Source: Candidatus Poribacteria bacterium (GTDB lineage Bacteria; Poribacteria; WGA-4E; PCPOR2b). Taken from it: a DNA stretch of 64,000 nucleotides. Shown here one piece after another: positions 44,374 to 45,882 of this stretch. The notes under the pieces are model-generated. The model was given only the letters and a program-made list of their open reading frames with translations, was not told where the DNA came from and searched no databases. The stretch spans positions 4,832,001 through 4,896,000 of the forward strand of contig OZ244587.1 in assembly GCA_965218095.1 (NCBI GenBank). The letters are read 5' to 3'. The first letter of the stretch is position 1. Each line of letters opens with the position of its first letter. The position numbers and the translations under genes are program-made.

Positions 44374-45882
44374 ATGAGTCGAATCCCAGACAGAGAACTG
44401 ATTAAACAGAGTATTGGTGGTGATAGCCAGGCTTTCGCGACCCTGATAAAGCGCGTTGAGACGCCACTGGTGAGGCTTGTCAGGTCTGAAATCCCTGATC
44501 CTGTATATGCCGAAGATGTCTTACAGGAAGTATTGTTGGATGTGTGGCAAGGTTTGAAGGGTCCTCGGGATTGGGACAGGTGGGCTGCATGGGTCATGCA
44601 GATTGCTCGAAACCGATGTCGTGATTTCTTTCGGTCAGCTCAGCGTCGAGAGGCGCCTATGGTGAATAGTGATCTCGAGCCCATCCTCAATAGACGAAGA
44701 AAACACGGTAGCTTTGAGACCAACTTGCTTGGTATCGTACTCCATACTCTGTCCGAAGCGCCGCCAGATCATGCCGAAGCCGCTCACTTATTCTATCTCG
44801 AAGGTTTGACCATCAGACAAATTGCGGCACAGTTGGGAAGGCCGGAGGGAACCATCAAGCGATGGCTTTTCCACGCCCGTAGTTTTGTCAGGAACCGCCT
44901 CGGATTGAGGCAAATGAGAATCGAAAGGAGGAGGACTATGACTTCCAAAGCATATGAACGCGAATACTACCAACGTGAAGCCCTTCGCCAGATCGCCGCC
45001 TGTCGTGAAGACGGCGCCGCGTCGCTCCACCTGCGAAATCCTGTTAGGTCGAAAGAACTCCCCAGTAAGTTGTGGATGCTGACTCAGTTGAAAAATCTCA
45101 GCTTGGATTGGAATGGGCTTGAGAACCTCCCAGAGGAGATTGGGCGATTGAAGAACCTGGAGGATCTTTCTTTAGAGAGTAACCAACTCAAGCAGTTGCC
45201 GAGCGAGATTGTATCGCTGTCACGCCTGCGATATCTGGAAGTGACTGGTAGCCAACTGGCGGAATTGCCAGCGGATGTTAGCCGTCTCGGTGCATTGCGG
45301 ACAATTATTCTCCACCGCAATCAACTTCGGGAATTGCCCGCCAGCTTCGGGGAATTGAACCGTCTTGAAATCGCTGAGCTGGACCTCAACCGGTTGGAGA
45401 GACTGCCAGAAGACCTCAGTGGTTTGACGAATCTCCGCGTGCTAACCCTTTCATACAACCGGCTTTCGGCGTTACCCAAAGCACTAGGTGAACTCCCTGC
45501 CATGGAAGAATTGTATGTTGAGGTGAACCAGTTAAATGAGTTGCCCGACGAGATCGGCAATCTTGAGAACCTTGAGACGCTGGCAATAGGAGAAAATCAA
45601 ATCCATGCGATCCCATCGACGATAGGTCGTTTGTTAAAACTGCAAGAGCTTGTCGTAGGATCTAATCAACTCACGGAAATTCCGCGAGAAATCGAGCAAC
45701 TTACAGAATTACGGGAGCTGGTGTTGAGCAAAAACCAGTTGACTTCCCTCCCAAAAAAACTTGCTGATTTGCCAAACTTGCAGGTTGTAAGACTCCATGA
45801 CAATCCCCTCCCTGACCGGTTGATTCAAGCAGCGGAAAACGGGATTGATGGGTTCCGTCGGGGGCTCGCGGAGGTCACATAG
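44374..45882 (+). CDS. ECF sigma-70 factor fused to leucine-rich repeat domain
   Basis: Sigma regions 2 and 4 in aa 1-178, then 11 LRRs of 23 aa (LPxEIGxLxxLxxLxLxxNxL). Confidence 0.9.
   Translation: MSRIPDRELIKQSIGGDSQAFATLIKRVETPLVRLVRSEIPDPVYAEDVLQEVLLDVWQGLKGPRDWDRWAAWVMQIARNRCRDFFRSAQRREAPMVNSDLEPILNRRRKHGSFETNLLGIVLHTLSEAPPDHAEAAHLFYLEGLTIRQIAAQLGRPEGTIKRWLFHARSFVRNRLGLRQMRIERRRTMTSKAYEREYYQREALRQIAACREDGAASLHLRNPVRSKELPSKLWMLTQLKNLSLDWNGLENLPEEIGRLKNLEDLSLESNQLKQLPSEIVSLSRLRYLEVTGSQLAELPADVSRLGALRTIILHRNQLRELPASFGELNRLEIAELDLNRLERLPEDLSGLTNLRVLTLSYNRLSALPKALGELPAMEELYVEVNQLNELPDEIGNLENLETLAIGENQIHAIPSTIGRLLKLQELVVGSNQLTEIPREIEQLTELRELVLSKNQLTSLPKKLADLPNLQVVRLHDNPLPDRLIQAAENGIDGFRRGLAEVT

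What the first reader, a model, noticed from the sequence alone, without database searches (positions are those of the whole stretch)
44374..45882. ECF sigma factor fused to 11 eukaryote-like LRRs, with an internal in-frame translation start
Seen: intact sigma regions 2 and 4 are followed in frame by 11 regular 23-aa LRRs with N- and C-caps (EALRQIAAC.../NPL...GIDG). At the domain boundary the DNA reads GAAAGGAGGAGGACTATG (ATG 44938 = Met189), a stronger RBS than the gene's own start has. There is no TM segment and no neighbouring anti-sigma gene, and the gene is intact between two wrecked neighbours. Known: ECFs with C-terminal extensions (SnoaL, TPR, WD40) use them as built-in regulators, and 23-aa LRRs are typical eukaryote-like repeats of symbionts and Roco proteins; I do not recall an LRR-extended ECF group. 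Inference: a cytoplasmic one-component sensor (LRR detects a protein or ligand, sigma is the output) that may also make a free ~314-aa LRR isoform acting as decoy or anti-sigma from the same gene.
Basis: partly seen in the sequence, partly recalled or inferred. Interest (0 to 1): 0.8.

Follow-up and report, generated by a model that had tools for sequence, protein, structure and literature searches.

The report
Sigma factor fused to leucine-rich repeats
A sponge-symbiont (Poribacteria) gene joins a stress-type sigma factor to a leucine-rich-repeat sensor domain, and a conserved internal ribosome-binding site and start codon at the joint suggest the cell also makes the repeat domain on its own.

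Summary
ORF 44374-45882 (+, 502 aa) encodes ECF sigma regions 2 and 4 fused in frame to an N-capped array of eleven 23-residue LRRs.

The fusion is real. About 50 protein clusters of 492-522 aa share it. It occurs in 17 of 176 genomes of the phylum, all in one Poribacteria family.

The junction GAAAGGAGG-N6-ATG is conserved:
- AAGGAG and the Met189 ATG are invariant in 15 of 15 full-length genes and in WD40-fused sister genes.
- Distant relatives with another C-terminal module keep the motif with other amino acids and another codon phase.
- One genus has a separate free-standing copy of that module, and there the motif is lost from the fused gene.
- The junction is the least-structured stretch of the mRNA, together with the 5' start.

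A conserved ECF-type promoter, GAACC-N16-CGCC, precedes the gene.

Best reading: an autoregulated ECF with a swappable built-in partner module, probably made both fused and free. I did not find this LRR architecture in the ECF literature I could read. The ligand, the regulon and the short isoform are not shown. Sister strains carry a frameshift at 45428.

The parts
44322..44351 (+). ECF-type promoter-like motif AGCGAACCTTT-N13-CGCCTT. The -35 GAACC is at 44325-44329, the spacer is 16 nt, and the -10 CGCC is at 44346-44349.
   Evidence: Conserved in 17 of 18 homologous upstream regions. The pattern GCGAACCWTT-N12-14-CGCCTW occurs exactly once in each of 19 of 29 family genomes; I located the site just upstream of the gene or its remnant by matching coordinates, and the backwards control gave 2 hits in all. 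The same GAACCTTT...CGCCTW architecture precedes the paralog family, including distant metagenome members. Function as a promoter is inferred.
44359..44366 (+). Weak Shine-Dalgarno-like GAAGAGG ahead of the annotated start
   Evidence: Read from the sequence. Only GAGG pairs with the anti-SD, with an 8-nt spacing to ATG 44374.
44374..45882 (+). Full-length ECF sigma-LRR gene (502 aa, stop included)
   Evidence: ORF list. About 50 homologous clusters of 492-522 aa have the same architecture. dN/dS is 0.17-0.25 for the sigma part and 0.26-0.41 for the LRR part.
44443..44649 (+). Sigma region 2 (residues 24-92)
   Evidence: Pfam PF04542, 41.5 bits against a cut-off of 24. TIGR02937 sigma70-ECF, 66 bits against a cut-off of 42.9.
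44737..44901 (+). Sigma region 4 (residues about 122-176)
   Evidence: Pfam PF08281, residues 139-170, 35.6 bits against a cut-off of 25.7. PF07638, residues 122-174.
44923..44940 (+). Internal translation-initiation signal: GAAAGGAGG (44923-44931), a 6-nt spacer, and ATG 44938-44940 (Met189)
   Evidence: AAGGAG and the ATG are invariant in 15 of 15 full-length homologs and in the WD40 sister genes. R185, R186 and M189 are invariant in 49 proteins. The anti-SD is present in the genome's 16S rRNA. This is the least-structured mRNA stretch of the gene, averaged over 15 homologs. Use as a start is inferred, not observed.
44938..45879 (+). LRR module (residues 189-502), the putative free 314-aa product: N-cap helix, eleven 23-residue repeats, C-cap helices
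   Evidence: Pfam LRR_14, LRR_8 and LRR_4. AlphaFold2 pLDDT above 95 with strands every 23 residues from 241 to 471. The nearest solved folds are Leptospira LRR proteins, SHOC2 and a Roco LRR.
45428..45428 (+). Polymorphic site: one base is missing in other strains, which truncates the protein to 356 aa
   Evidence: The base is 'left out' in contigs of runs X1, X3 and X4. The same reading is seen in P0001, from a second 6.27-Mb assembly.

Best explanation
This is an autoregulated group-4 (ECF) sigma factor of a sponge-associated Poribacteria lineage.

**The module slot.** In related two-gene systems a separate partner gene follows the sigma gene; I inferred this arrangement, because I could not see those loci. 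Here the partner is fused in frame to the sigma. The joint is a fixed cassette point. The same sigma core is found with an unknown 260-aa module (widespread), with WD40 propellers, or, as here, with eleven LRRs.

**Two products.** The joint keeps a strong Shine-Dalgarno sequence and an ATG. One mRNA therefore most likely yields two proteins: the 502-aa sigma-LRR fusion and a free 314-aa LRR protein.

**Proposed mechanism.** The LRR is a cytoplasmic protein- or ligand-binding module that controls the attached sigma in cis. The free copy acts in trans as a buffer or feedback regulator.

**Shown:** the architecture, its conservation, the conserved joint signal and the conserved promoter motif.

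**Inferred:** internal initiation, regulation of the sigma by the LRR, and autoregulation.

**Unknown:** the ligand and the regulon.
For: 1. **The fusion is real.**
   - 50 clusters of 492-522 aa carry sigma plus LRR families.
   - 17 of 176 phylum genomes have the gene, all in family f1.
   - Both halves are under purifying selection.
2. **The module slot.**
   - WD40-fused genes share 80-84% identical sigma domains.
   - They sit in tandem with the LRR gene in G035 and G032.
   - Nucleotide homology ends about 10 nt after the ATG.
   - The window's sigma half is closest to G034, but its LRR half is closest to L013. This is a mosaic at the joint.
3. **Split relatives.**
   - Eight fetched stand-alone sigmas (183-194 aa, about 45% identity) end at the joint.
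   - The 260-aa module is a free-standing gene in G022. Stop codons lie upstream of it, and AAGGAG-N9-ATG sits at the homologous Met.
4. **The joint signal is selected at the nucleotide level.**
   - AAGGAG plus ATG is invariant in 15 of 15 genes.
   - The Met is invariant in 49 LRR-type proteins and in 29 diverse proteins with the 260-aa module, within an otherwise variable linker.
   - The motif persists with different amino acids (KQRSSEM, KRRISQM, PQRSSSM) and in another codon phase (SKGESTM).
   - In-frame AAGGAG-N7-ATG occurs in only 3 of 3218 long ORFs. Two of the three are these paralogs.
5. **A natural control.**
   - In genus g9 the five fused genes have neither Met nor SD at the joint.
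   - Each of those five genomes has a separate match to the module alone. Three of these, whose DNA I read, have their own SD-ATG.
   - All five have a promoter motif of the same type downstream of the fused gene. I placed this second motif ahead of the separate copy only in L050.
   - The six f1 genomes that keep the joint signal show no separate copy at E <= 1e-30.
6. **mRNA structure.** The joint and the 5' start are the two least-structured stretches. Mean MFE is -2.5 to -3.5 kcal/mol, against a gene mean of -8.3 with sd 2.0, over 15 homologs.
7. **The organism uses SD.** AAGGAG lies upstream of 13.5% of crude starts, against 0.22% of internal in-frame ATGs.
8. **Promoter motif.**
Against: - No protein or ribosome data show the short isoform.
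- The purine-rich joint also encodes a basic linker (ERRK). AGR codons are common where Arg and Lys interchange, so part of the conservation could be at the protein level.
- The low mRNA structure follows partly from the same purine richness, so it is not fully independent evidence.
- The complementary-distribution argument rests on two lineages only (f1 against g9).
- The synonymous-difference minimum at the joint is confounded by amino-acid divergence.
- No second genomic site of the promoter motif rises above the control, so the sigma has no demonstrated target other than itself and its paralog.
- The gene is dispensable. It is absent from 12 of 28 family genomes at the threshold used. It is frameshifted in sister strains, sigma-deleted in G032, interrupted in G049, degraded in G033 and gone in G052.
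- RNA-library contigs cover only parts of the gene at depth 2-3 and cannot show transcript starts.
Confidence: 0.58

Rival explanations
1. Fossil of a gene fusion. The SD-ATG is only the remnant of a once-separate downstream cistron. Today only the 502-aa fusion is made, and the LRR acts solely in cis as a regulatory extension, as in the ECF41/42/57 types.
For: Split relatives exist: sigmas that end at the joint and a free-standing module gene with its SD-ATG at the homologous place. The basic linker could hold the AGR codons in place. There is no direct evidence for a short product.
Against: A fossil should decay. Instead, AAGGAG and the ATG are invariant in 15 of 15 genes. The Met is invariant in 49 and in 29 proteins. 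The motif survives changes of residues and of codon phase down to 27% identity. The g9 genes show that the protein tolerates losing both the Met and the motif, and they lost them where a separate module gene exists. The joint is as unstructured as the true 5' start.
Confidence: 0.22
2. The biologically important product is the LRR protein itself, a 'eukaryote-like' repeat protein used in the symbiosis with the sponge. The sigma part is a dispensable carrier or expression device.
For: LRR and WD40 proteins are abundant in Poribacteria and are discussed as host-interaction factors (passages of PMC3909097). In G032 the sigma part carries a roughly 100-residue deletion while the LRR reading frame stays intact, with dN/dS of 0.30 against G035. 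The nearest LRR sequences are of eukaryotic type: LRRC40, SHOC2, Roco.
Against: There is no signal peptide or membrane segment. The sigma part is under stronger purifying selection than the LRR, 0.17-0.25 against 0.26-0.41. All 52 close LRR homologs are sigma-linked or derive from such genes, and none stands free. An ECF-type promoter is conserved in front of the gene.
Confidence: 0.1
3. The internal SD-like sequence is a translational pause site that helps the two domains fold separately. It is not a start site.
For: It lies exactly at a domain boundary. Several other ECF fusions of the same genome have SD-like runs near their boundaries.
Against: Pausing needs no ATG, yet the Met is invariant at a fixed 6-10 nt from the motif. 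The g9 fused genes do without the motif.
Confidence: 0.05
4. Artefact: two genes joined by an assembly or sequencing error, or a recent mutation in this genome only.
For: The neighbourhood holds gene fragments. A second assembly of a close strain differs by an indel in this gene.
Against: The open frame across the joint is present in 15 of 15 independent genomes and in about 50 protein clusters from many samples.
Confidence: 0.01

Closest known systems
ECF sigma factors with C-terminal regulatory extensions: ECF41/56/294/295 (SnoaL-like), ECF42 (TPR), ECF57 (WD40-like)
   Same: A sigma2-sigma4 core is followed by an extension of more than 50 residues with a protein-binding fold. No anti-sigma gene lies nearby. 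An autoregulated promoter is likely. Sources: passages of PMC7826278 and of PMC8999054. The sister genes of this family carry WD40.
   Different: The extension here is an LRR array, which the texts I could search do not mention. The joint carries a conserved SD-ATG. The same sigma core is found with three different modules. In the published scheme, by contrast, one extension type goes with one group (PMC7826278 passage).
Classical ECF sigma / anti-sigma two-gene operons
   Same: The partner lies immediately 3' of the sigma. Stand-alone sigmas of this clade stop at the joint. In genus g9 the free-standing module gene lies next to the fused gene, and in L050 a promoter motif of the same type lies ahead of it. 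Co-expression of sigma and partner from a sigma-dependent promoter is the textbook arrangement (established knowledge, recalled).
   Different: There is no stop codon between the two parts. The partner has no recognisable anti-sigma domain, zinc-finger motif or membrane segment. Binding between the two parts is not shown.
Bacterial genes that give a full-length protein and a C-terminal protein from an in-frame internal start (for example CheA long/short, ClpB, IF2; recalled, not checked here)
   Same: An in-frame SD plus ATG inside an ORF, at a domain boundary.
   Different: I know of no such case for a sigma factor. One search for it found nothing relevant. Here the internal start is only predicted.
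Leptospira LRR proteins (LIC11098, LIC10831, LIC12759), SHOC2 and the Roco LRR domain
   Same: These are the best structural matches of the LRR part (Foldseek E 1e-18 to 1e-11, 24-35% identity). The best sequence matches outside the family are LRRC40, SHOC2, COR/Roco and TIR-LRR proteins at 44% identity or less.
   Different: None of them is linked to a sigma factor. The Leptospira proteins and the other bacterial LRR hits examined here (L019, L020) appear to be secreted: both start with a hydrophobic N-terminus that looks like a signal peptide.

Membership tests
ECF (group 4) sigma-70 family sigma factor | Sigma region 2 and region 4 present, above curated thresholds | tested here: met
   PF04542, 41.5 bits against 24. 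PF08281, 35.6 against 25.7. PF07638, 27.9 against 21.1. TIGR02937, 66 against 42.9.
ECF (group 4) sigma-70 family sigma factor | No regions 1.1 or 3; compact core of about 190 residues | tested here: met
   No other sigma-region family appears among the hits. The core ends at residue 188 and is joined by a low-confidence linker at residues 87-116.
ECF (group 4) sigma-70 family sigma factor | Own promoter of the AAC (-35) / CG(T/C) (-10) type (autoregulation) | tested here: inconclusive
   GAACC-N16-CGCC is conserved upstream in 17 of 18 homologs. It occurs once per genome and also precedes the paralog family. Promoter activity and dependence on this sigma were not tested.
ECF (group 4) sigma-70 family sigma factor | Binds core RNA polymerase and directs transcription | not testable with these tools
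   Needs biochemistry.
ECF with C-terminal regulatory extension (one-component ECFs) | Fused C-terminal domain of more than 50 residues, conserved across the group | tested here: met
   The 314-residue LRR module is present in about 50 clusters and in 49 aligned proteins.
ECF with C-terminal regulatory extension (one-component ECFs) | No anti-sigma factor gene in the neighbourhood | tested here: met
   No anti-sigma family among 10 neighbouring ORFs. No neighbour is conserved across genera.
ECF with C-terminal regulatory extension (one-component ECFs) | The extension contacts and controls the sigma core | not testable with these tools
   Needs two-hybrid tests, structures or activity assays.
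ECF57 (WD40-like extension) | WD40-like repeats in the extension | tested here: not met
   This gene has LRRs. Only the sister genes P0009, P0012 and P0013 have WD40.
ECF57 (WD40-like extension) | Two conserved cysteines that could link sigma2 and sigma4 (passage of PMC8999054) | tested here: not met
   The invariant cysteines are C82 (sigma2) and C210 (N-cap of the module). Sigma4 has none.
Published ECF group (ECF classification 2.0) | Score above threshold with a group-specific model | not testable with these tools
   The group models are not available here and the supplements of PMC7826278 are closed. The nearest NCBIfam ECF models all score below their cut-offs, for example TIGR02989 at 66.4 against 124.55.
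Leucine-rich repeat domain | Tandem LxxLxLxxN-type repeats that form a solenoid with one beta-strand per repeat | tested here: met
   LRR_8 at 105 bits and LRR_14 at 123 bits. Twelve strands; the last eleven are spaced by 23 residues, with pLDDT above 95. Foldseek matches LRR structures.
Type III-secreted LRR effectors (XopAE, XopAC, XopL, SlrP, SspH2 models of NCBIfam) | Score above the curated cut-off of the family model | tested here: not met
   163.6 against 600, 148 against 450, 138.5 against 500, 60.4 against 1113 and 52.5 against 1243. These matches reflect LRR likeness only.
Known anti-phage defence proteins (PADLOC) | Match to a defence-system model | tested here: not met
   No family matched this protein.

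The most novel reading that the evidence does not exclude
A clade of ECF sigma factors works as 'two cistrons in one reading frame'. The sensor or partner module is translated both fused to the sigma and free, from a conserved internal start.

The joint also serves as a recombination point where modules are exchanged: the unknown 260-aa domain, WD40 or LRR.

With repeat-type sensors, fast turnover, a mosaic structure and a patchy distribution, the LRR and WD40 versions could be cytoplasmic pattern-recognition sigma factors. They would be an NLR-like logic wired directly to transcription, detecting a phage or host protein in a sponge symbiont.
Probability: 0.2. Interest if true: 0.85.

Novelty: new variant of a known kind. 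Interest (0 to 1): 0.68.

Why it matters
ECF sigma factors with built-in regulatory extensions are a recognised but poorly understood way of signalling.

- **A new sensor type.** This family adds an LRR domain to the known extension types.
- **A fixed module slot.** The same sigma core carries three different modules at one joint.
- **A possible dual-product design.** If the conserved internal start is used, one gene delivers a sigma-sensor fusion and a free sensor in a set ratio. That is a compact feedback or buffering arrangement, and I found no report of it for sigma factors.
- **A natural control.** Genus g9 lost the signal from its fused gene, and those genomes also hold a separate module gene. 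This makes the idea directly testable by simple heterologous expression.
- **A cytoplasmic role for repeat proteins.** 'Eukaryote-like' repeat proteins of sponge symbionts are usually discussed only as host-interaction factors. These genes point to a regulatory role inside the bacterial cytoplasm.

Tried and rejected
**Complex prediction.** Sigma part 1-188 against LRR part 189-502, both taken from alignment A1. No verdict (score 0.04, mark 0.32). This is neither support nor evidence against binding.

**Regulon search in G000.**
- Simple patterns gave no more hits than the reversed-genome control: strict 6 against 9, mid 21 against 24, loose 15 against 20.
- A two-block weight matrix scored the gene's own promoter at 32.4. 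The next best sites scored 21.5 and 21.0, against a control maximum of 20.1.
- Relaxed clade-wide patterns found only this gene and its paralog, plus one or two unconvincing sites. Controls gave 1-5 hits.
- No regulon could be named.

**Synonymous-difference profile**. There is a minimum at codons 188-200, but similar minima occur elsewhere. The measure is biased wherever amino acids diverge, so I did not use it as evidence.

**RNA runs**.
- Contigs from one sponge metatranscriptome study cover 44889-45153 and 45320-45744 at depth 2-3.
- The sigma-coding part has no cover. This is no finding: a gap in contigs proves nothing, and DNA can be present in such libraries.
- No transcript ends could be read.

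**The protein-atlas search**. The best scores were 0.76, below the level at which a hit is more than a lead.

**Metagenome scan with the 450-aa family**. Only 3 of 80 kept loci covered the module. One of these (L073) was cut and gave no joint.

**Non-Poribacteria hits.** L016-L021 match the LRR only. L019 and L020, which I examined, are LRR proteins with a hydrophobic, signal-peptide-like N-terminus and no sigma part.

**The unknown 260-aa module.** No Pfam match, no significant PDB sequence match and no PADLOC match.

**Literature.**
- 'LRR', 'leucine' and 'WD40' occur 0 times in the main texts of PMC7826278 and PMC7671368 (find mode).
- The review PMC8999054 mentions WD40 for ECF57 but not LRR.
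- 'sigma' occurs 0 times in PMC3909097.
- The searches found no ECF-LRR description.
- Supplements (group descriptions S2 of PMC7826278, tables of PMC3909097) are closed and might list such proteins.

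Full report
**1. The observation**

The window lies in a 6.35-Mb single-contig genome, 93.9% complete. ORF 44374..45882 (+) encodes 502 residues.

Pfam places Sigma70_r2 at residues 24-92 and Sigma70_r4_2 at 139-170, both above their cut-offs. LRR families cover about residues 230-480. 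NCBIfam's general ECF model TIGR02937 is passed, at 66 bits against 42.9. All specific ECF models, and all LRR-effector models, stay far below their cut-offs.

An AlphaFold2 model built on 49 homologs has pLDDT 83.5 and pTM 0.67. The LRR part scores above 95, the sigma domains 64-85, and the linker at residues 87-116 is disordered. The model shows eleven strands exactly 23 residues apart (241 to 471). An N-cap (helix 192-213, strand 217-222) precedes them and two cap helices follow.

The DNA at the boundary reads GAAAGGAGG AGGACT ATG, with the ATG at 44938 (Met189). The genome's 16S rRNA ends in ...GGATCACCTCCTTTCT, so nine bases can pair. The annotated start has only GAAGAGG. There is no hydrophobic segment: the maximum 19-residue Kyte-Doolittle mean is 0.95.

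Upstream neighbours are fragments of an ATP-grasp/CoA-ligase gene, of a BNR protein and of a Por_Secre_tail protein. One addition: closely related strains carry a one-base deletion at 45428 that cuts the protein to 356 residues (P0001; runs X1, X3 and X4).

**2. The fusion is a conserved gene, restricted to one lineage**

I searched with residues 1-200 among proteins of 276-879 aa. This gave 79 hits among 562 candidates.
- 50 hits are clusters of 492-522 aa that carry sigma and LRR families together.
- One of these is named by its source as coming from Candidatus Poribacteria.

Across 176 genomes of the phylum the gene is found in 17, including this one. All 17 lie in one family: 16 of 28 there, and 0 of 147 elsewhere, at E <= 1e-40.

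In a library of 1.84 billion representatives at 50% identity, the whole LRR-type family collapses to a single full-length representative. Among 36 longer relatives of the sigma core, none carries an LRR. Their extensions include BFN_dom, DUF3108-like, ankyrin, NHL and others.

A search with the LRR half gave 52 top rows, all sigma-linked genes or their broken derivatives, at 59% identity or more. After those, identity falls to 44% or less, in generic LRR proteins such as LRRC40, SHOC2, Roco/COR and TIR-LRR.

Neighbouring genes are conserved only within one genus, so there is no conserved partner gene. Both halves evolve under purifying selection: dN/dS is 0.17-0.25 for sigma and 0.26-0.41 for the LRR.

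**3. The joint is a module slot**

Proteins P0009, P0012 and P0013 have an 80-84% identical sigma part followed by WD40 propellers instead of LRRs.
- In G035 and G032 the WD40 gene sits directly upstream of the LRR gene.
- In G035 the two sigma parts are 95-98% identical over the first 240 nt and 82-83% identical near the joint.
- Their homology stops about ten bases after the ATG.

The window's sigma half is closest to that of G034 (dS 0.21), whereas its LRR half is closest to that of L013 (dS 0.25, against a sigma dS of 0.86). This is a mosaic with its breakpoint at the joint.

A more distant paralog family (about 43% identity in the sigma part, about 450 aa) carries an unknown 260-aa module with no Pfam or PDB sequence match. 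One member lies in the same genome.

Stand-alone sigmas of 183-194 aa at about 45% identity also exist. The eight I fetched all end within a few residues of the joint. Short proteins can be cut at contig ends, so this is suggestive rather than proven.

In G022 the 260-aa module is a free-standing gene of 267 codons. Stop codons lie upstream of it, and AAGGAG-N9-ATG sits at the homologous methionine.

**4. Is the internal SD-ATG used?**

*Evidence for use:*
- In 15 distinct full-length LRR genes the codons read [G/C]AA AGG AGR AAR NNN ATG. AAGGAG and the ATG are invariant, while the residues on either side vary. The WD40 genes have the same signal.
- R185, R186 and M189 are invariant in 49 proteins.
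- In the 450-aa family the junction Met is one of only 18 invariant columns among 29 diverse representatives, and it sits in an otherwise variable linker.
- At the DNA level the motif is kept with different amino acids: KQRSSEM in this genome's paralog, KRRISQM in its orthologs and PQRSSSM in a metagenome member. At 27% identity it is kept in a different codon phase, TCG AAA GGA GAA AGC ACT ATG.
- Genome-wide, AAGGAG precedes 13.5% of crudely called starts but only 0.22% of 19,778 internal in-frame ATGs. The exact in-frame AAGGAG-N7-ATG occurs in 3 of 3218 long ORFs, and two of those are the two ECF paralogs.
- Genus g9 provides a natural control. Its five fused genes lack both the Met and the motif. 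Each of those five genomes also has a match to the module alone. Three of these, whose DNA I read, have their own SD-ATG. The six f1 genomes that keep the joint signal show no separate copy at E <= 1e-30.
- Averaged over 15 homologs, the least-structured 45-nt windows of the whole mRNA lie around the joint (start nt 526-556, MFE -2.5 to -3.5) and at the 5' end. The gene mean is -8.3 with sd 2.0.

*Evidence against, or limits:*
- There are no protein data.
- The linker is basic and purine-rich, which explains part of the codon choice and of the low structure.
- The g9/f1 contrast amounts to two lineages.
- My synonymous-rate profile is confounded.

I put the probability of real internal initiation at about 0.65.

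**5. Promoter**

An alignment of 18 upstream regions shows AGCGAACC(T/A)TT-N13-CGCCTW ending about 25 nt before the start. The one exception is the second gene of the G035 tandem.

In the window the -35 GAACC is at 44325-44329 and the -10 CGCC at 44346-44349, 16 nt apart.

The pattern occurs exactly once in each of 19 of 29 family genomes. Matched against the coordinates, each site lies just upstream of the gene or its remnant. The backwards control gave 2 hits in total.

Of the two genomes that have the motif but not the gene:
- G033 holds a degraded WD40 version.
- G052 holds only the promoter remnant.

The same GAACCTTT...CGCCTW architecture precedes the 450-aa family genes, including metagenome members at 46% and 27% identity. 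In genus g9 a second motif of this type lies downstream of the fused gene; in L050 I could place it ahead of the free-standing module gene. This fits positive autoregulation with the partner in the regulon, as in classical ECF/anti-sigma operons. No experiment supports it yet.

I could not find further targets.

**6. Mechanism proposed**

- *Shown:* the architecture, its conservation, the module slot, the conserved joint signal and the conserved promoter motif.
- *Inferred from the position of the module and from established knowledge of ECF systems:* the module regulates the sigma, as the fused equivalent of a downstream partner gene. The mRNA gives both a fused and a free module. The free module acts in trans.
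- *Unknown:* the ligand of the LRR, the sign of the regulation and the regulon.

A structure-based binding test gave no verdict (see Tried and rejected).

**7. Comparison with what is known, and novelty**

ECFs with C-terminal extensions are the second most common regulatory type. They are described with SnoaL-like, TPR, Cys-rich, DUF1835 and transmembrane extensions (passages of PMC7826278) and with WD40-like repeats in ECF57 (passage of PMC8999054).

None of the main texts I searched mentions LRR. The Poribacteria single-cell paper lists LRR and WD40 proteins but never mentions sigma. The supplements were closed, so an unnamed listing cannot be excluded.

The gene is a member of the ECF family by its domains. 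It works like a 'one-component' ECF with an extension. It is not ECF57 by the features I could test. Its group assignment remains open.

I rate it a new variant of a known kind. It has two unusual traits: an LRR sensor, and a conserved in-frame internal start at a module-exchange point.

**8. Turnover**

The gene is often lost or broken:
- It is absent from 12 of 28 family genomes at the threshold used.
- It is frameshifted at 45428 in sister strains.
- Its sigma part is deleted in G032, with the LRR frame intact.
- It is interrupted by an insertion of about 470 bp in G049.
- It is degraded in G033 and gone in G052.

This argues for a conditionally useful accessory function, not for a core one.

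Noticed in passing
window 41836-44153: A run of gene fragments lies upstream of the sigma-LRR gene: an ATP-grasp_5 N-terminal piece (41836-42198), a CoA_binding piece joined to the end of Ligase_CoA_2 (42513-42908), a weak BNR_2 piece (43286-43831), and only the C-terminal FlgD_ig/Por_Secre_tail part of a protein on the minus strand (43872-44153). This looks like a decaying region.
   Followed up: partly
G000:C1:2056435-2057577 (L042/L002): The same genome has a paralogous ECF (43% identity in the sigma part, 381 aa here against about 450-470 aa in relatives, so probably truncated at the 3' end). It carries an unknown module, the same type of promoter and its own in-frame AAGGAG-N7-ATG at codon 190.
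   Followed up: partly
L069 1075-1878 (-), and P0059-P0074: The roughly 260-residue module attached to the paralog family (conserved motifs KKQPFP, ELRWW, GRTVL, FVHWYD) has no Pfam, PDB-sequence or PADLOC match. It occurs both fused and free-standing, and appears to be an undescribed domain family.
   Followed up: partly
L039 (G049:C2:4968550-4972083): The sigma-LRR gene of G049 is interrupted after '...EGTIKRWLS' by about 470 bp. Two copies of a roughly 35-base stretch flank the interruption, which suggests a small inserted element or a local duplication.
   Followed up: no
G000 loci L006, L007, L010, L003: Other ECF genes of this genome with long fused extensions (648, 692 and 1173 codons) also have SD-like runs followed by Met close to the end of sigma region 4, for example CAAAGGAGG-N7-ATG at Met212 of the 1173-codon frame. 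In-frame sigma-partner fusions that keep start signals may be common in this organism.
   Followed up: no
G000 minus strand (start at base 3338082 of the reverse-complement strand as the script counts it): This is the third and only other long ORF of the genome with an exact in-frame AAGGAG-N7-ATG (347 codons, Met92). I did not examine it.
   Followed up: no
window 45962-46249 (-): A small 95-codon ORF lies just downstream on the opposite strand and has no Pfam or PADLOC match.
   Followed up: no
L045 about 3110 and L046 about 3180: In genus g5 a second GAACC-N16-CGCC motif lies downstream of the paralog gene. It might mark a further target, but the locus ends too soon to identify the gene.
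   Followed up: partly
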